Positions 24,001 to 32,668 of a stretch of 32,668 nucleotides of DNA are shown piece after piece. The position numbers are program-made. The stretch comes from Synechococcales cyanobacterium VAR_4_metabat_354 (lineage in GTDB: Bacteria; Cyanobacteriota; Cyanobacteriia; Cyanobacteriales; Chamaesiphonaceae). The stretch is from positions 1 to 32,668 of the forward strand of contig JANOQI010000027.1 of the NCBI GenBank assembly GCA_031414775.1, in the 5' to 3' direction. How positions within the stretch are numbered: position 1 is the first letter of the stretch; every line of letters begins with the position of its first letter.

Positions 24001-27000
24001 CGGTACCCCCACCATTATCGATCGAGGTTCCACATCCTTAGTCACCACTGCCCCCGCCCCAATAATACTGCCCGCTCCAATCCTTACCCCATCCAAAACA
24101 ATCGCCCCCATTCCAATCAGACAGCCCTTTTCAATAAAAGCTGAATGGATCACCGCCCGATGTCCGATCGTTACATAATCCCCAATCACCGTCGCGATCC
24201 CCGGATCGCCGTGAATGATTGCCCCATCTTGCACATTACTAAAAGCCCCAATCTCAATTCTTTCCACATCACCGCGTACCACCGCCCCATACCAAATACT
24301 CGCCTGATCACCCAGCGTCACGCGACCCATCACCGTGGCATTAGGAGCAACAAAAGCAGCAGCAGTGCGATCTACTGGTGGCCAAAAAGAAGTCATAGAG
24401 TTAGTAAATATTCAAATATCAAGGTTGACTCAAATTTTAGCGCGATTTCCTGGAGCAGCAGCCCCCATACCGACATTCTTTCCAGGTCGGATCACCGCAA
24501 ACCGGAACCGGGGCTAAATGATAAAGTCATTAATAGTGAAACTCTTTGGCTGTCATGAATACCCCTGATTCTTTTCTGCGCAATATTTGGTACTACGCCC
24601 TCCCTGGCGAACAGCTAAAGCCCGGTCAAATGTTGGCCAAAACTATTTTGAACGAACCAGTGCTGCTGGGGCGTAGTAACAGTGGTGCAGTTTTTGCCTT
24701 GCGGGATATTTGCCCTCACCGGGCAGTGCCCCTGAGTTGTGGCCGTTTTGATGGCGAAGAAGTGGAATGTTGTTATCATGGCTGGCGGTTTAACCCCGAT
24801 GGCGAATGTACGATCATTCCAGCCTTGGCCGCCGGTCAGCAGGTGGATTTAGGACGGTACGGAGTGCGCAAATACCAGGTGCGTGATGTCCAGGGAAATA
24901 TTTGGATCTACATGCCGGAGCTAGATCAATTGGACGCGGTACCAGATTCCGAGCCGCCGCAGATTCCGGGCATTGGCGATGTATCGCCCCAGGTGAGCTT
25001 AATGCTGCCATTTCCCTGCCATATTGACCATGCCGTTGTGGGTTTAATGGACCCAGCGCATGTACCTTTTGTGCACCGGTCTTGGTGGTGGCGATCGAAC
25101 AGCATTCTCTCCGATGAAATCAAAACCTTCGACCCCTCGCCCCACGGGTTTACGATGCGCCGCCATACATTGGAACGCAGTACCTTTTTCTATGACTTAG
25201 TGGGGGGCACCCCGGATGTAGAAATTTCTTTTCAGTTACCGGGTGTAAGGATCGAGCAAGTGATTACTCGCAAGCATCGGGTGATTAATTTGACGGTGAT
25301 TACGCCGCTTACTGACAATGAAACAGAAGTAACAACTTTGTTTTACACCACACTCTCGTGGGCAAAGATATTGAAACCGGTAATCTTGCCGTATATCCGA
25401 ACATTTTTAGATCAAGATCGGCAAATGGTAGTGAAGCAGCAAATTGGTCTCAAGTACGATCCGCCCTTAATGTTAATAAAAGATGCTGATGCCCAGGCTC
25501 GGTGGTACTATCAGCTTAAAGGTGAATACAAGAGATCGATCGCTGAATCTCGACCTTTCCAAAACCCAGTCAAAGAGCAGGTTCTGCACTGGCGTAGCTA
25601 ATTCTGCTGTCTTAATTTTGTCTGAATTTCATTCACCTTTTTTATAACTACAACTATGAATCAAGAGCCTTCAGAAATAGCATCGGTTGATATGTGGCAA
25701 TCTAAACCCTGGTGGTGCCAGCCTTGGACAATTATCCTCACCGGGATTTTGTTGATAGCCGGGAGCTGGTTTTTGTTACATACCCTGTGGTTGACTGTGC
25801 CTTTGGGAATTTTGATTGTGGTGTGGTGGACTTATTTTTTGCTTTTGGTACCCCGGCTTTTACGGGGAGGGCAATAGTAGGCTTTTAATTTGTTTAGCTC
25901 GGTTGCCTAGACATACTTTTAGCAAGTGAGTATTACTTGGTGCTGACAAAGGATATTCAATTAATATTAAGACCTTAAACAGAAAGAAAGAGAGACCAGT
26001 CGTAACCGGCTGGAAGAAATTACTGGACAATAGTTTTCCGTATTGTCGTACTACCCAGTCATTTTCAATTAGTTGCCAGATCGATGCTGGTAAAGGTGTA
26101 CCTAGCAGATCATGAGTGACGAGCAGGGCGATCAGCAATAGCCGCTGACAGCCGCTCGTAGTTGCTCGATCGATCACGGTTTCCCATCGTGGCGCTGAGT
26201 AATGACCCACTAATTCAGCAATATCAGAGACTTTTGCTAATATGCATTTTTTAGCATAAGAATCTTTCACAATTTGGATAGATAACACTAGTAAAAGGTC
26301 TTCCATACTGAAACTTTGAACAGTGTTATCTAATAAAACAACACTTTGGCAACGCTGAATACAACCTTTAAAATCAAGACGAAATGGATAGTAAGATTGA
26401 GCGATACCTATATGGAGGTCAATATTAACTCCCTGATCAAGATGAATAAATGTTTGTTCCCATTCATATTGATCATATAATTGATAACCCTTAGAAATCA
26501 GTAATGCCTCGGATTTAGTCACATCTTGAGGGTCAATCAATAAATCTAAATCCTGAAATTGACGGAAGCAAATATCTCCGTACACAGCAGATGCTAGTAC
26601 TGCTCCCTTATAAGGAATTACTTGAATATTTTCAGCAGCAAACCAAGCTAAAATCTCTAACAATTTACTGCTTAAAGACATGGAAATAACGATGTTCGTG
26701 TAATTTATTTCCCTCAACTGCCAGGAAATACTATCGGGAATTAGTTCACCACCGACCTGCTGTAAGTTCCGATAAAGTAAAGGAATAACCTGCTGATAAA
26801 TGGCTAATTCAATTAATTTATCCCAGTCGATCTTTTGCTGAATTAATAACCTAATTTGCTGATTAACAGTCTCATCAATATGCGTGCGAGCACAGCACAA
26901 TAATAGCTGCTCTTCGATCGAACTATTCAACATCACGCTAGATTGTAGATATGAAGATGTCATCGGTTATCGATAAGGCTCGGCTTGGGTTTCAAATAGA

Positions 27001-30000: not shown

Positions 30001-32668
30001 CTGGACAACGATTTACCAACTGGACATAAGCATCCAATAACCGAGGATTGCGATCGATAAAACGACTGACATCGTAACCATGAGTTAATAATTCAAAAAT
30101 TCCTTGTGCGGGTGGAATAGCTTCCAGCCGAATAGACTCGGTGTCCAGTTCGGGGTTAGCGAGCAAATACAAGCCGCCCAATGGTAAAGGTTCTTGTTGA
30201 TAAGTACCACCCAAATGGGTTTCTGGATGATAGAAAATTTTGTAATCGGTGGCTTGGGAAGCATCTAAACCTAGCAATTCACCTGTTTCTGGATATAATT
30301 TGATGCGGGGATTCCCCGGTAAAACATGCCCTTGCTCATCGATCACTAAAACATCATCGGTCACTAATCCAGCTCCATGACTAGTGCAAAAGGCACTTAA
30401 GGTTGATTTACCAGCACCGGAATATCCAATAAAAGCCACAGCTCGACCATTAAGAACTACTGCATTGGCATGAACTGCGATCTGTCCTTGTAAATTCAGA
30501 CAAATCCCGGTCAAAGTACTAGTGAAGCCCAATGTCAACTCTCCCGGATCTAAATCACGGGCATCTTCAGTGACACAGACTTGGATATTCAGACCATCCA
30601 GGCTAACCCAGGCTCCTATTTGATCTGACCAATCCACCCAATGGGGATTTTGGCCAAAGACATCATGCGCCAGATTCTGTCTGACTGGAGAGTTATCCGA
30701 CTTATGCAGTAGCGTTGTTACATACTCAATGGTCAGTCGCTGAAGGCGAGATGCTTGCCTCAACTCACTGTGCAGGATGTCTGAGATGTTCATTTTTGAT
30801 TAGATGAAGACAAAAGCCCGGCTCAAAATAAAAAACTCGGTCTAAAATCCGAGTTTGCAGTCAAATTGATTATGAAAATGACTTTAGGTAGAATTGTGAT
30901 ACCTAACCCATCATCATGGTTCCGCCCATCATGTCTGCATACATGAAACCGCTCATCTGGTTGGTTACGGAGTACAAAGAGCCAAGTTTAGTTAATTGGG
31001 GACTGACGTATTTTTTTAGCATGGAGTTATTTACTCTATTGAACTGGATTTCATTTTACCATAACACGCGGATTATTGTTTAGCTTACAGGCTTTCATCC
31101 CGACGCTCTACCCGATCGGGTAAAGCGTCGGGATGAAAGCCGAGCGAGTTGACGATTACAATTGAGCCGCATAACACGGAGTGTTTGCTATTATTGTTTT
31201 AGAGTAATCAAGGAATCATGCTAAAAGCTGTCAAAGTCCGAATTTACCCCACTAAAGCCCAGCAGATTCATCTTGCTCAGGCTTTTGGTTGTGTGCGTTG
31301 GGTCTGGAATCAGTCTTTGAGCGTAATGACCGCGACATATCAAGAGACGGGGAAAGGCGTTACAGCCATGACCATGAAGAAATCTATACCCTTGTGGAAA
31401 ACAGAATTTGAATGGCTTTCTGAGTGCTACTCACAATGCCTTCAGCAATCAGTTCTTAATTTGGGCATAGCTTTTGGCAATTTTTTCGATGGTCGGGCAA
31501 TGTATCCAACTTTTAAAAAGCGCCAAGGAAAACAATCAATTCAGTTTCCGCAAAACGTCAAAGTTTTAAGTGATTCTGAAATTAAGTTTCCAGGCAATTT
31601 TGGTACTGTCAAGGCAAAGGTACATCGGGATATTAACGGCAAGGTTAAGACCGTAACCGTGAGTAAAAATCCTGATGGTAGATACTTTGCTTCGATGCTT
31701 GTGGACGACGGAATTGATAACCCTGAAGCCAGCAAAGACGGTGATGTAATTGGTATCGATCTAGGTCTAACCGATTTTGCAGTAACCTCCAATGGCTCCA
31801 AATATCAGCACCCGAGAGCTACTAAGAAGTATGAGAGAAACCTAAAGCGTAAGCAAAAAAAGCTATCTCGTAAAAAAGAAAAGACGACTAGCAATCGTCG
31901 AAAAGCTAAGCTTGCAGTGGCTAAGGTTCATTCCAAAATCAAAAGAGTCCGCGAAGATTTCCTACACAAGCTATCGCGCAAGATAGTAGACGAAAACCAA
32001 GTCATAGTGGTAGAGAATCTGGCAGTAAGAAACATGGTGAAAAATCATTGTCTAGCCAAGGCAATTTCTGATGCTGGCTGGGGAATGTTTTGCACCATGC
32101 TCAAATACAAAGCTGAAATGGTGGGTAAGGTCTATCTAGAAATAGGTCGATTTTTTGCATCTACTCATCTTTGCTCGAACACTTTGAAGTCACTGCCAAA
32201 GATGGATCTATCGGTGCGTGAATTCGATTGCCCTCATTGCGGACAAAGGCACGATAGAGATATTAACGCTGCGATAAACATCAAAAATGAAGGCTTGCGC
32301 GTATTGACGTTGGGAACCAGCGTTATTGCTCCTGAAGGCTACGTAAGACCAAAACAGTATGGGCGCAAGTCTACTACTGTAGAGGCTGTGGTCGTTGAAG
32401 GGAGAAGCCCACGCTCTACCGCAAGGTGAGCGTCGGGTAGTTCACTCTAGAGATCATTGCTAGACGCTGTTCGGTGATTTTGAGTGCTGGACTCATTGCG
32501 CTTGCTTTGGTAAGTGTGAAGCCCAAAAGTCTTCCAGGTAAATGATTGTGGACTTCATCAAACCCATAGTTATCTTTGATATGGTTTGCTAATATATAGG
32601 ATAGCAGTGGCGGTATGGCGTTGCCGATTTGTTGGATTTTTTCTGAGGTGTTGCCCAGAAACCGGAAG

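What a model noticed while it worked through the whole genome (the two positions that open the first line are those of the whole stretch)
25860..31022. Methionine-rich lasso peptide cluster with PRMT-like methyltransferase
A 39-aa precursor (g01304: lasso leader YxxPxLx3Gx5Tx, core QMSGFMYADMMGGTMMMG with 7 Met in 18 residues) sits beside an HPr-kinase-like protein, a PRMT-type methyltransferase, an ABC exporter and an NTP_transf_5 protein; the lasso protease, RRE and cyclase genes lie at the end of contig C20 (60016-62684) and join them directly in related cyanobacteria. Boldest reading: a new family of tailored, Met-rich lasso peptides of cyanobacteria (nine-residue ring closed on Asp9, Mets-motif tail) that binds Cu(I)/Ag(I) like a chalkophore and is tailored by a eukaryote-type PRMT-fold enzyme acting on something other than arginine. 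New: neither a Met-rich lasso core nor a PRMT-like lasso tailoring enzym [...]
Evidence so far: Six-frame motif scan finds one good lasso precursor in the genome (3 raw hits, call 41). 8 related loci from genome_contigs: cyclase, kinase-like and PRMT genes adjacent in 8 of 8; full order B2-B1-C-A-kinase-PRMT-ABC-NTP_transf_5 in 4 of 8 (L008, L009, L010, L014; 60-98% id), B1/B2 and ABC behind PRMT in the other 4. The motif scan sees precursors in 4 of 8 loci (7 peptides, up to 4 a locus): leader M[LS]KKY[VIM][SR]P[QE][LV]TKLGSLY..T[NH]; cores AMSGFMYADMMGGTMMMG, AMAMGGYADMMAGSMMNP, AMNGGYADMMQGNMMMA, AMDGMYSDMQGGNMMNP, one Met-poor STSRGRYNDQGGMDLTNMGLG. blastn against L008: C20 up to 62735 and C27 from 31083 downward abut at one point of the relative, so the last 138 bp of C20 and C27 [...]
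(Added by a program. Inside this text positions count along the whole contig: contig position 1 is position 1 of the stretch shown here. "Call 12" and the like, gene names such as g00115 and contig names such as C1 are that model's own, and its searches are not shown. The text may have been shortened before it was handed on; [...] marks where a part breaks off. The agent that wrote the report below was given it as the finding of a first reader that could run no searches.)

Follow-up and report, generated by a model that had tools for sequence, protein, structure and literature searches.

The report
Methionine-linked lasso peptide methyltransferase cluster
A cyanobacterial gene cluster for a knotted "lasso" peptide carries a methyltransferase with the fold of arginine methyltransferases but an altered arginine pocket, and in the loci examined it sits beside lasso peptides that contain methionine, which points to an undescribed peptide-tailoring enzyme family.

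Summary
Window 25860-31022 (minus strand) encodes a 39-aa lasso precursor, an HprK-like kinase, a PRMT-fold methyltransferase (MT), an ABC exporter and an NTP_transf_5 protein. B2, B1 and the cyclase end contig C20. The two contigs abut at one base of a 97%-identical relative. Contigs of two other studies run uninterrupted across that point, so mobile DNA (TnpB element) split this strain's cluster.

New here:
- The MT is a high-confidence type-I PRMT fold. The first Glu of the double-E loop is Val, and a C-terminal three-helix domain is added whose best two structural matches are PqqD and lasso B1 (weak Z).
- Two such remodelled MT classes sit beside lasso genes in 25 of 25 metagenome loci of at least 5 kb. 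Canonical double-E relatives do so in 0 of 11.
- 36 of 37 cores beside such an MT contain Met and only 17 of 37 contain Arg. 1 of 16 cores of MT-less cyanobacterial lasso loci contains Met. An MT-less cluster nested in the same cyclase clade has a Met-free core.

The Met-rich cyanobacterial cores are thus a subset of a wide Met-bearing family. My leading inference (about 0.4) is S-methylation of the tail Met, a modification reported in longipeptin A. Copper binding is untested. There is no chemistry.

The parts
30903..31022 (-). Lasso precursor gene A. 39 aa: a 21-aa leader with YxxPxLx3Gx5Tx and Thr at -2, and an 18-aa core with 7 Met. Asp9 is the only possible ring acceptor.
   Evidence: The ORF is. 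It is the only strict motif hit in the genome. Against L002 there are 8 synonymous codon changes and one replacement, codon 22 CAG (Gln) for GCG (Ala).
31053..31082 (-). Promoter-like site (TAAACA, 18 nt, TG-TAAAAT) directly upstream of A. It lies in the 61 bp kept between A and the insertion point.
   Evidence: The region as a whole has no more such sites than its shuffles (8 against 9.6), so this is weak. The same stretch is present in L002.
30833..30856 (-). Terminator-like hairpin with a T run, 47 bp after the stop of A and before the kinase gene. It may be an attenuator that gives more precursor than enzyme transcript.
   Evidence: 8-pair stem, 4 G-C pairs. Consensus match only. The role is inferred.
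29918..30793 (-). HprK-like P-loop kinase K, 291 aa. The Walker A motif GYSGAGKST is intact. Its stop overlaps the MT start by 4 bp.
   Evidence: In one search it is 29-31% identical to Paenibacillus proteins that sources name HPr kinase. One search gives Hpr(Ser) kinase 3tqf at E 0.04 only.
29031..29921 (-). MT residues 1-297: SAM-binding Rossmann domain plus beta-barrel of the type-I PRMT fold. The double-E loop reads S104-V105-F-T-G-N-F-L-L-E-E114, so the first Glu is Val. H251-W252 stand in place of the THW loop.
   Evidence: Model with pLDDT 94.5. Foldseek gives PRMT2, PRMT6, CARM1 and PRMT3 at E about 1e-28, TM 0.66-0.86 and 26-32% identity.
28803..29030 (-). MT residues 298-373: an added C-terminal domain. 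Its last three helices lie at residues 322-333, 340-350 and 358-372 in the whole-protein model. It resembles the helical half of RiPP recognition elements.
   Evidence: In VIA-align over 48,161 chains, ranks 1 and 2 are PqqD 3g2b (Z 5.4) and lasso B1 6jx3 (Z 5.0), TbiB1 is rank 15 and MibB rank 23. hhalign against the B1 alignment gives P 0.009 but probability 4.5%. This is suggestive, not established.
26967..28781 (-). ABC exporter, 604 aa, with fused permease and ATPase of the MsbA/ABCB1 type. Presumed to export the peptide.
25860..26963 (-). NTP_transf_5 (PF14907) protein, 367 aa. This is the family of PsmN and LppN of kinase-bearing lasso and related clusters.
   Evidence: E 2.5e-55. No solved relative. 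The family's role comes from the passages read.
31084..32446 (+). Inserted mobile DNA that splits the cluster. It has an end hairpin at 31090-31141 and tnpB (IS200/IS605 type) at 31218-32429. The insertion starts exactly at 31084.
   Evidence: The junction is. TnpB scores E 2.7e-115 against NF038281. Contigs of runs X5 and X8 leave the window at 31083 and go on into the flank of the cyclase gene.
32416..32667 (-). Open frame running off the contig end. By my reading it looks like the C-terminus of a C5 DNA methyltransferase. It is part of whatever lies between the TnpB element and the C20 end.
   Evidence: The motif reading is recalled, not tested. A PF00145 search of the genome found no partner piece at a contig end.

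Best explanation
**What it is.** This is the precursor, tailoring and export half of a lasso-peptide gene cluster of a cyanobacterium. The processing half (B2 peptidase, B1 leader-binding protein, C cyclase) ends contig C20. It was cut off in this strain by mobile DNA inserted 61 bp upstream of the precursor gene.

**Expected pathway**
1. B1 binds the YxxP leader.
2. B2 cuts after Thr-Asn.
3. C joins the new N-terminus to Asp9, giving a 9-residue ring with a 9-residue tail.
4. The kinase and the NTP_transf_5 protein decorate a hydroxyl residue, as in paeninodin-type clusters. The site is unknown because there is no C-terminal Ser.
5. The ABC pump exports the product.

**The methyltransferase.** It has a true PRMT fold but belongs to a clade dedicated to lasso peptides.
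- The arginine-binding double-E loop is remodelled.
- A C-terminal domain resembling a leader-recognition element has been added.
- Its presence tracks methionine in the core peptide.

**Leading inference (about 0.4 on its own).** The MT methylates the sulfur of the tail Met, most often 6 residues after the ring Asp. The product would be an S-methylmethionine sulfonium, as found chemically in longipeptin A.

**Shown and inferred.** Shown: gene content, fold, loop change, linkage to lasso genes, the Met association and the insertion. Inferred: every chemical step.
For: **Cluster and join**
- Domains.
- In L002, Abh-GFO | B2-B1-C-A-K-MT-ABC-NT | DUF6737-Rieske joins the flanks of C20 and C27.
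- The two contigs abut exactly.
- Contigs of X5 and X8, from two other studies, leave the window at 31083. By eye, 29 and 28 of the next 30 letters equal the reverse complement of C20 62706-62735.

**MT fold**
- pLDDT 94.5.
- PRMT2/6/3/CARM1 at E about 1e-28.

**MT classes in the 80 metagenome loci**
- Class I (S-V-x-T-G-N ... E-D, H-W): 36 loci.
- Class II (S-D-x-R-G, I-Y or L-H): 18 loci.
- Where the gene is not cut by the contig end, both classes carry the C-terminal domain: it aligns in 22 of 36 class I and 15 of 18 class II loci.
- Both have a lasso gene next to them in 17 of 17 and 8 of 8 loci of at least 5 kb.
- Class III keeps the canonical E...E and H-W and lacks the extra domain: 22 loci, 0 of 11 of at least 5 kb with a lasso gene.

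**Met association**
- 29 MT-linked loci give 37 distinct cores. Met is in 36, Met after the ring acceptor in 34, Arg in 17.
- 13 MT-less cyanobacterial lasso loci give 16 distinct cores. Met is in 1.
- By locus the counts are 28 of 29 against 1 of 13 (Fisher p 1.5e-8; related loci are not independent).
- Met is the only residue that separates the two sets: 13.7% against 0.2% of residues.
- Tail Met positions peak at +6 from the ring acceptor (16 cores). 21 of 37 cores have Met at +5 to +7.

**Nested contrasts on the cyclase tree** (quick IQ-TREE)
- G144 (L136) has an orthologous C (52% identity), K and ABC but no MT, and its core has no Met. It sits inside the starred 13-row clade of MT-linked cyanobacterial cyclases.
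- MT-less L119 and L122, with Met-free cores, sit next to MT-linked L022.
- The single Met-bearing MT-less core (L123) is from G190, which has a related MT on another contig.

**Precedent**
- Longipeptin A carries S-methyl-Met13 at a plug position. Its enzyme is unconfirmed, and the candidate, LopH, is compared there to a different fold (PMC10664482, passages).
- Kinase plus NTP transferase are described as typical of paeninodin-like clusters (PMC13381572, sections 4, 6 and 7; PMC9266682, passages).
Against: - There is no chemistry for any member.
- PRMT-fold enzymes are known as N-methyltransferases. A thioether substrate would be new for this fold.
- Classes I and II have quite different pockets yet both go with Met. 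The Val-for-Glu change therefore cannot by itself explain Met specificity.
- One linked core (L064) has no Met. Two more have Met only in the ring.
- The MT-less controls are all cyanobacterial, while many MT-linked loci come from metagenome contigs of unidentified organisms. Composition differences between lineages are only partly controlled, by the nested contrasts.
- For L109-L135 only 1.5 kb on each side of the cyclase was read. For those, absence of an MT rests on the genome-wide search, with one protein query at E 1e-20.
- The accepted precursor regions were chosen by eye before counting.
- The resemblance of the C-terminal domain to recognition elements is weak: Z 5.0-5.4, no Foldseek hit at E 0.001 or better, and the beta-strands of a full element are missing.
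- The kinase has no obvious conserved target. C-terminal Ser occurs in 5 of 37 linked cores.
- Whether this strain still makes the peptide is unknown.
Confidence: 0.75

Rival explanations
1. The MT methylates some other group. Candidates are the C-terminal carboxylate, the phosphate put on by the kinase, a Tyr hydroxyl, or an Asn or Gln amide. On this view the conserved Met is only a recognition or steric-plug residue of this lasso family.
For: - Known lasso methylations are on carboxyl groups: LasF/StspM at the C-terminus and PIMT homologues on Asp (PMC9266682, passages).
- K and MT genes overlap by 4 bp in the window and are adjacent in 8 of 8 genome loci. That would suit sequential action on one site.
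- Met at +5 to +7 is where plug residues sit (the plug statement for longipeptin is).
- PRMT-fold enzymes are not known to methylate sulfur (recalled).
Against: - No other residue type is both near-universal in linked cores and rare in unlinked ones. Tyr is in 14 of 37 linked cores.
- The residue before Met varies: Met, Ala, Asn, Ser, Thr, Asp and Gly in the 29-core subset.
- C-terminal residues vary widely: Thr, Pro, Ser, Gly, Met, Ala and others.
- A C-terminal or phosphate target would not explain why Met is lost where the MT is lost (G144).
- In some metagenome clusters K is not next to the MT.
Confidence: 0.35
2. The Met-rich tail (MMxxxMMM) is a Cu(I)/Ag(I)-binding 'Mets motif', so the peptide acts as a copper-binding or copper-scavenging lasso, like a chalkophore. 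The MT tailors something unrelated. This is not exclusive of the other readings.
For: - 7 of 18 core residues are Met in the window.
- 16 of 37 linked cores have 3 or more Met, mostly the cyanobacterial ones.
- Thioether-rich motifs bind Cu(I) in CusF, PcoC and Ctr1 (recalled, no call).
Against: - No copper gene (efflux pump, chaperone or regulator) is seen beside the cluster in the window or in L002. The flanks are Rieske, DUF6737, GFO and hydrolase genes.
- 21 of 37 linked cores have fewer than three Met, several a single tail Met. One thioether cannot chelate a metal, yet those cores keep the MT.
- If the MT makes sulfonium groups, the sulfur would lose its ligand character.
Confidence: 0.12
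3. The MT is a true protein-arginine methyltransferase that methylates Arg in the cores that have it, and is idle or vestigial beside Arg-free cores such as the window's.
For: - The fold and 26-32% identity to PRMT2, PRMT6, PRMT3 and CARM1.
- The second Glu (E114), D15, R18 and H251-W252 are kept. Their PRMT1 equivalents are recalled.
- 17 of 37 linked cores have Arg.
Against: - 20 of 37 linked cores, including the window's and all four of L008, have no Arg. Yet the MT there is intact and 65-97% identical among the 8 genome loci.
- The first Glu of the double-E loop is Val in class I. Class II loses the second Glu and the H-W pair.
- Relatives that keep the canonical loop are never beside lasso genes: 0 of 11 loci of at least 5 kb.
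Confidence: 0.05
4. In this particular genome the cluster is a dead remnant. The insertion uncouples A-K-MT-ABC-NT from B2-B1-C, and Gln1 blocks cyclisation. This concerns only this strain, not the family.
For: - At least 1.6 kb of foreign DNA lies between C and A. The far side is unassembled.
- The one amino-acid change against L002 is at core position 1, by two base changes in one codon.
Against: - All eight genes are full length against L002.
- The other 8 codon differences in A are synonymous.
- A promoter-like site remains upstream of A (weak).
- Gln1 occurs in other cyanobacterial lasso precursors (L110, L111, L114).
- The insertion looks recent. Related strains in two other studies lack it.
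Confidence: 0.2

Closest known systems
Paeninodin / pseudomycoidin-type lasso clusters (HprK-like kinase PadeK/PsmK plus NTP_transf_5 protein PsmN), and the related LPP clusters (LppK, LppN)
   Same: - Split B1/B2, cyclase, MsbA-like exporter, HprK-like kinase and NTP_transf_5 protein in one cluster, with a YxxP leader.
- K is 29-31% identical to Paenibacillus homologues.
- The pairing of kinase and NTP transferase is called typical in PMC13381572.
   Different: - The known kinases (poly)phosphorylate a C-terminal Ser, or Ser3 in LPP. The window's core ends in Gly, and only 5 of 37 linked cores end in Ser.
- Neither the matching passages of the 2022 review nor the sections of PMC13381572 that I read mention a PRMT-fold MT or Met-bearing cores.
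Longipeptin A (Longimycelium tulufanense), a lasso peptide with an S-methyl-Met13 sulfonium
   Same: - Both are lasso peptides with a Met about 5-6 residues after the ring Asp, near the C-terminus. In longipeptin that position is equivalent to a steric plug and is S-methylated.
- The tail Met of the linked cores peaks at +6.
   Different: - The proposed enzyme, LopH, is compared in that paper to a PF00145-type protein and to the SAM-binding domain of MTHFR. It is not compared to a PRMT fold, and it is unconfirmed.
- That cluster has P450s and biaryl links. No kinase or NTP transferase appears in the passages I read.
- I did not compare LopH by sequence, and I could not search that genome for a class I or II MT.
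Type-I protein arginine methyltransferases (PRMT1, 2, 3, 6, CARM1)
   Same: - Rossmann domain plus beta-barrel fold: TM 0.66-0.86, 26-32% identity.
- The SAM-contact motifs, D15, R18, E114 and H251-W252 are kept.
   Different: - The first Glu of the double-E loop is Val.
- There is an extra C-terminal helical domain.
- The gene is dedicated to lasso clusters, and about half of the presumed substrates have no Arg.
Known lasso methyltransferases: LasF/StspM (C-terminal carboxyl O-methylation, lassomycin type) and PIMT homologues (aspartimide, cellulonodin-2 and lihuanodin)
   Same: They are SAM-dependent tailoring enzymes of lasso peptides. StspM acts on the leader-bearing precursor.
   Different: - The enzyme families differ: modelled on mitomycin 7-O-MT, and PIMT respectively.
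- Their targets are carboxyl groups and a conserved Asp6. Neither is linked to Met.
Copper-binding peptides and Mets motifs (methanobactins; CusF, PcoC and Ctr1 motifs); recalled, not tested
   Same: Clusters of Met thioethers in a short exported peptide.
   Different: - None of the cluster's eight proteins matched a family other than those named above. Which families make methanobactin is recalled, and they were not searched for by name.
- No copper genes are nearby.
- 21 of 37 linked cores have fewer than three Met.

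Membership tests
Lasso peptide biosynthetic gene cluster | Precursor with a leader carrying the YxxP recognition motif and Thr at the penultimate leader position | tested here: met
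   The window's precursor is the single strict motif hit in the genome. The leader is conserved in 11 peptides of 8 related loci.
Lasso peptide biosynthetic gene cluster | Asp or Glu at core position 7-9 to close the macrolactam ring | tested here: met
   Asp9 is the only acidic residue of the core. An acceptor lies at positions 7-10 in all 37 linked cores.
Lasso peptide biosynthetic gene cluster | Asn-synthetase-like cyclase C, transglutaminase-like peptidase B2 and PqqD-like B1 | tested here: met
   on the end of contig C20. They join the window through relatives and other runs, not through this assembly.
Lasso peptide biosynthetic gene cluster | A threaded lariat product | not testable with these tools
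   Needs MS, NMR and protease or heat stability tests of the peptide.
Paeninodin-like (phosphorylated) lasso peptides | HprK-like kinase and NTP_transf_5 protein in the cluster | tested here: met
   The kinase match to Pfam is below the cut-off, but the Walker A motif is intact and homologues include proteins named HPr kinase.
Paeninodin-like (phosphorylated) lasso peptides | C-terminal Ser of the core as the phosphorylation site | tested here: not met
   The window's core ends in Gly. 5 of 37 linked cores end in Ser and 7 of 37 in Thr.
Protein arginine N-methyltransferase (type I PRMT) | Rossmann SAM domain plus beta-barrel fold | tested here: met
Protein arginine N-methyltransferase (type I PRMT) | Double-E loop with both glutamates | tested here: not met
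   V105 stands in place of the first Glu in all class I sequences. E114 is kept. The numbering against PRMT1 is recalled.
Protein arginine N-methyltransferase (type I PRMT) | THW loop | tested here: inconclusive
   L-H-W in class I (His and Trp kept). I-Y, L-H or V-H in class II.
Protein arginine N-methyltransferase (type I PRMT) | Arginine in the substrate | tested here: not met
   There is no Arg in the window's core. Arg is in 17 of 37 linked cores. That the core is the substrate is itself inferred.
RiPP recognition element (PqqD-like winged helix) fused to the MT | Three-stranded sheet plus three helices that bind a leader peptide | tested here: inconclusive
   Only the helices are present. 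PqqD and lasso B1 are ranks 1 and 2 of 48,161 chains, but at Z 5.4 and 5.0. Foldseek finds nothing at E 0.001 or better. hhalign gives probability 4.5%.
S-methyl-Met (sulfonium) lasso peptides, longipeptin type | Met at a tail (plug) position | tested here: met
   Met lies after the ring acceptor in 34 of 37 linked cores, with the mode at +6. Which residue is the plug is inferred by position only.
S-methyl-Met (sulfonium) lasso peptides, longipeptin type | A sulfonium on the product (+14 Da, loss of Me2S) | not testable with these tools
   Needs mass spectrometry of the product.
Chalkophore / copper-binding peptide | Measured Cu(I) affinity, copper-regulated or copper-linked genes | not testable with these tools
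   No copper-related family appears among the cluster genes or flanks. Binding cannot be computed here.

The most novel reading that the evidence does not exclude
The lasso-linked PRMT-fold enzymes (classes I and II) are peptidyl-methionine S-methyltransferases.

- They evolved from an arginine methyltransferase fold by remodelling the double-E loop and adding a leader-binding domain.
- They put a dimethylsulfonium on the tail or plug Met of lasso peptides.
- This would give the sulfonium modification seen in longipeptin A its first enzyme family, and would show it to be widespread.
- In the Met-rich cyanobacterial cores, with up to 5 tail Met in the window's peptide, several sulfonium groups could turn a neutral tail polycationic.

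A still bolder and much less likely extension (under 0.05): loss of dimethyl sulfide from the sulfonium yields a homoserine-type residue, which the kinase then phosphorylates. That would explain the missing C-terminal Ser.
Probability: 0.35. Interest if true: 0.85.

Novelty: new variant of a known kind. Interest (0 to 1): 0.68.

Why it matters
- **Engineering interest.** Lasso peptides are a heavily mined natural-product class, and each new tailoring enzyme widens what can be engineered.
- **A large unstudied clade.** At E 1e-30 or better, 1003 cluster representatives match the window's MT. That count mixes lasso-linked and canonical forms. Here the PRMT fold appears to have been re-purposed for RiPP tailoring, with a simple predictive rule: an MT beside the cluster goes with Met in the core.
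- **If the substrate is Met.** The result would supply the missing enzymology for peptide sulfonium formation, a reactive and charged handle of interest for bioconjugation. It would also show a PRMT fold methylating sulfur.
- **Directly testable.** Intact clusters exist in culture-collection cyanobacteria, by source names: Rivularia sp. PCC 7116, where the MT and kinase carry adjacent locus tags, and Stanieria cyanosphaera PCC 7437.

Tried and rejected
- **Complex prediction.** MT with SAM and the precursor scored 0.00 and gave no verdict.
- **RNA evidence.** No RNA holder was listed among the sequencing runs, so nothing can be said on expression.
- **Foldseek on the C-terminal domain alone.** No match at E 0.001 or better.
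- **hhalign of that domain against a B1 alignment.** It aligned the expected helices, but at probability 4.5%.
- **ESM Atlas on residues 298-373.** Only leads under 0.9, including a winged-helix domain of bacterial lysine methyltransferases at 0.78. Not used as evidence.
- **Rfam on 30700-32668.** Only sub-threshold microRNA-model hits on the hairpin at 31081-31154, and a sub-threshold Trp_leader hit. No family.
- **Rest of the C5-methylase fragment.** A PF00145 search of the genome gave 5 full genes, none at a matching contig end.
- **Right end of C27.** It shares no overlap with any other contig end. What lies between 32668 and the repeat at the C20 end stays unknown.
- **The search for related loci with the wide alignment A1.** It failed for lack of a conserved stretch. 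The closer alignment A2 worked.
- **Two narrower motif patterns for the core count.** They dropped true precursors, including the two counter-examples. The count I report is that.
- **Arg as the shared feature of 'Met-poor' cores.** I considered it and rejected it as the MT's raison d'etre, because those cores also keep a tail Met.
- **Literature searches that found nothing on point:**
  - 'lasso peptide' + 'arginine methyltransferase': 1 unrelated paper.
  - 'lasso peptide' + 'methionine-rich': 2 papers held both terms; the one listed was unrelated.
  - 'lasso' + 'PRMT' + 'RiPP': 9 papers; the one lasso-related hit matched the file suffix 'prmtop'.

Full report
**1. Observation**

The window is the whole of contig C27 of a 3.56-Mb, 64-contig genome. 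Five genes lie head to tail on the minus strand:
- precursor A, 30903-31022
- kinase-like K, 29918-30793
- methyltransferase MT, 28800-29921, whose start overlaps the stop of K by 4 bp
- ABC exporter, 26967-28781
- NTP_transf_5 protein, 25860-26963

Pfam and NCBIfam give the following:
- NTP_transf_5: 2.5e-55.
- ABC_tran: 2.3e-33, MsbA-like.
- PRMT_C: 3e-13, plus Methyltransf_25 at 1e-8.
- K: only a weak Hpr_kinase_C match (1.2e-4, under the cut-off) and HprK_rel_B at 6.8e-8.

The precursor has the lasso leader motif with Thr at -2. Its 18-residue core has 7 Met and a single acidic residue, Asp9. A strict six-frame scan of the genome finds only this peptide.

The last genes of contig C20 are B2 (Transglut_core3), B1 (PqqD) and the cyclase (Asn_synthase), ending at 62684.

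**2. The two contigs belong together**

A search with the MT in one genome per species returned 8 loci.
- In L002, a Synechococcales MAG by its record title with an MT 97% identical, the order is Abh-GFO | B2-B1-C-A-K-MT-ABC-NT | DUF6737-Rieske. These are the flanking genes of both C20 and C27.
- C20 up to 62735 and C27 from 31083 downward align to L002 8612 and 8613, so they abut at one base.
- In the strain of the window, contigs of runs X1 and X2 (0 differences) run through 31083 into the tnpB gene.
- Contigs of X5 and X8 come from two other studies and from strains 90-99% alike. They leave the window exactly at 31083. By eye, 29 and 28 of the next 30 letters equal the reverse complement of C20 62706-62735.

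The uninterrupted cluster therefore exists in nature, and the insertion is specific to this strain.

The inserted DNA starts with a hairpin (31090-31141) and an IS200/IS605-type tnpB (31218-32429; NF038281, 2.7e-115). The last 138-140 bp of C20 are a repeat found at six other contig ends and once inside C16. The DNA between 32668 and that repeat is not assembled.

**3. Is this strain's copy alive?**

- All eight genes are full length against L002.
- Precursor A differs from L002 at 9 codons. Eight changes are synonymous. The ninth is Gln (CAG) for Ala (GCG) at core position 1.
- Gln, Lys, Arg, Asn and Thr all occur at position 1 in other precursors of the loci examined.
- A promoter-like site (31082-31053) survives between A and the insertion.
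- A terminator-like hairpin follows A (30856-30833).
- Both are consensus matches, no more frequent than in shuffles.
- No RNA run was listed.

I put decay of this copy at about 0.2.

**4. Kinase and NTP_transf_5 protein**

- Close homologues of K (E 6e-53 or better, 56 clusters) carry cyanobacterial names where named.
- After a gap come proteins of 29-36% identity. These include Paenibacillus proteins that sources call HPr kinase.
[quoted passage not shown] They also report that LppK puts several phosphates on one Ser.
- The passages of PMC9266682 read say that PsmK phosphorylates the C-terminal Ser and that PsmN adds hexoses.
- The window's core ends in Gly. Only 5 of 37 MT-linked cores end in Ser and 7 in Thr. 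The kinase's site is therefore open.

**5. The methyltransferase**

- A model built on 32 sequences has pLDDT 94.5.
- Foldseek returns PRMT2, PRMT6, CARM1 and PRMT3 at E about 1e-28, TM 0.66-0.86 and 26-32% identity.
- In the alignment, the residues that I equate from memory with PRMT1 M48, D51, R54, E153, H293 and W294 are kept (M12, D15, R18, E114, H251, W252).
- The first Glu of the double-E loop is Val105.
- Residues 298-373 form an added domain ending in three helices.
- Folded alone (pLDDT 82.7), this domain has no Foldseek match at E 0.001 or better.
- In a search of 48,161 representative chains that does not rely on Foldseek, ranks 1 and 2 are PqqD (Z 5.4) and a lasso B1 bound to its leader (Z 5.0). 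TbiB1 is at rank 15 and the lantibiotic dehydratase MibB at rank 23.
- These Z values are in the range where a common helical arrangement is possible. hhalign against the B1 alignment is weak (P 0.009, probability 4.5%).
- I therefore call the domain recognition-element-like, not a proven recognition element.

**6. Spread of the MT family**

- HMMER over 1.84 billion representatives gives 1003 proteins at E 1e-30 or better. Most of those listed are 370-390 aa.
- The best 120 clusters at 90% identity are 53% identical or more. Where named, they are cyanobacterial: Rivularia PCC 7116, Stanieria PCC 7437, Calothrix PCC 7716, Leptolyngbya, Myxacorys, Cyanaurora and Elainella.
- In a sample of 401 cyanobacterial genomes, an orthologue (63% identity) is found only in G294 besides the window's own genome. 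Relatives of 28-38% identity occur in 7 more.
- A metagenome scan gave 80 loci. I annotated these with profiles built from the genome loci.

The MTs fall into three classes:

| Class | Loop and THW position | C-terminal domain | Loci | Loci of at least 5 kb with a lasso gene next to the MT |
|---|---|---|---|---|
| I | S-V-x-T-G-N ... E-D, H-W | present | 36 | 17 of 17 |
| II | S-D-x-R-G, I-Y or L-H | present | 18 | 8 of 8 |
| III | canonical S-E ... E-E, H-W | absent | 22 | 0 of 11 |

Four truncated sequences could not be classed. The C-terminal domain aligned in 22 of 36 class I and 15 of 18 class II loci; by my reading the others are genes cut by a contig end.

The remodelled loop and the extra domain thus go with dedication to lasso clusters. 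Gene orders vary. One example is B1-B2-MT-C-K-NT-ABC at 27-29% identity in L099 and L102.

**7. Methionine tracks the MT**

I collected precursors with leader motifs inside the gaps next to C, K or MT. The regions were chosen by eye. The final count is.

- MT-linked: 29 loci, 37 distinct cores. Met is in 36, Met after the ring acceptor in 34, 3 or more Met in 16, Arg in 17.
- Controls: lasso loci found with the window's cyclase in the same 401 genomes, with no MT in the locus. For 10 of the 12 genomes involved there was also no MT hit. These are 13 loci with 16 distinct cores, and Met is in 1.
- By locus the counts are 28 of 29 against 1 of 13 (Fisher 1.5e-8; related loci are not independent, so this overstates).
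- Met is the only residue that separates the sets: present in 36 of 37 against 1 of 16 cores, and 13.7% against 0.2% of residues.
- Tail Met positions peak at +6 from the ring acceptor. 21 of 37 cores have Met at +5 to +7.

A quick IQ-TREE of 58 cyclases (the careful search did not finish) needs at least 3 changes of the MT label on starred branches. Three contrasts stand out:
- G144 has orthologous C (52% identity), K and ABC but no MT. It sits inside the starred clade of 12 MT-linked cyanobacterial cyclases, and its core has no Met.
- MT-less L119 and L122, with Met-free cores ending in Ser, sit beside MT-linked L022.
- The one Met-bearing 'MT-less' core (L123) is from G190, which has a class-unassigned MT relative on another contig.

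The counter-examples are L064 (no Met) and two cores with Met only in the ring.

**8. Mechanism**

- Arg cannot be the common target, because it is absent from 20 of 37 cores.
- No hydroxyl, amide or terminal residue is conserved.
- The simplest reading is that Met is the MT's substrate or its key recognition residue.
- Peptidyl-Met S-methylation has a precedent in lasso peptides. Longipeptin A carries an S-methyl-Met13 sulfonium at a plug-equivalent position. That paper only tentatively assigns it to LopH, a protein compared there to a different SAM-binding fold (PMC10664482, passages).
- I rate Met S-methylation by this clade at about 0.35-0.4. Another methyl acceptor, with Met as plug or recognition residue, is about equally likely.
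- Cu(I) binding by the Met-rich tails is about 0.12, and it is not exclusive of the other readings.
- Nothing here measures chemistry.

**9. Novelty**

- Lasso clusters with a kinase and an NTP transferase are known.
- I found no description of a PRMT-fold lasso tailoring enzyme, its recognition-element-like extension or the Met rule.
- I read passages of a 2022 review of lasso modifications.
- Subscription papers and supplements of genome-mining studies were not seen. They may list these clusters.

Noticed in passing
window 31084-32446: An IS200/IS605-type element that carries tnpB only. A near-perfect 52-bp palindrome lies at its left end (31090-31141). One 83%-identical copy sits in C22 61170-62415. 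No Rfam family matches.
   Followed up: partly
window 1-175, and C20 62734-62873: Both the left end of the window and the end of C20 are about 140-bp repeats shared with several other contig ends (C22, C10, C54, C16, C11, C53; and C42, C41, C10, C22, C16). Short multi-copy elements break this assembly. In C16 the two repeat kinds lie about 700 bp apart (249897-250036 and 250737-250876).
   Followed up: partly
L030, L034, L035, L041, L042 (metagenome loci): Many class I clusters carry two separate B1/PqqD-like genes (B1-B2-MT-B1'-C). This recalls the paired recognition elements described for Bacillota in PMC13381572.
   Followed up: no
L136 (G144:C1:984000-1003900), 8112-14307: An orthologous cyanobacterial cluster, B2-B1-C-A-K-ABC, lacks both the MT and the NTP_transf_5 gene. 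Its core is Met-free and has two Cys. It is a natural comparison partner for experiments.
   Followed up: yes
L067, L079-L083, L086, L087, L091-L093 and others (22 metagenome loci): Bacterial PRMT-like proteins of about 310-420 aa keep the canonical double-E and H-W motifs. They have no C-terminal domain and no lasso neighbours. Their function and context were not examined.
   Followed up: no
L088, L095, L099, L102: Class II MT clusters encode near-identical short cores of the pattern K-[VI]-D-x-x-G-x-x-D-G-G ... ending in R-T, mostly with a single tail Met and a C-terminal Thr. One L099 core has Met only in the ring. They often come in two copies per locus. This is a conserved peptide family from metagenome contigs whose organisms I did not identify.
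   Followed up: partly
L003 5080-6666: In the Chamaesiphon MAG locus a gap of about 1.6 kb separates B1 from C, where the other full-order loci have them adjacent. The content was not looked at.
   Followed up: no
window 8754-9824 (-): A full-length C5 DNA methyltransferase gene (PF00145, 3e-68) lies elsewhere in the window. It is unrelated to the cluster.
   Followed up: no
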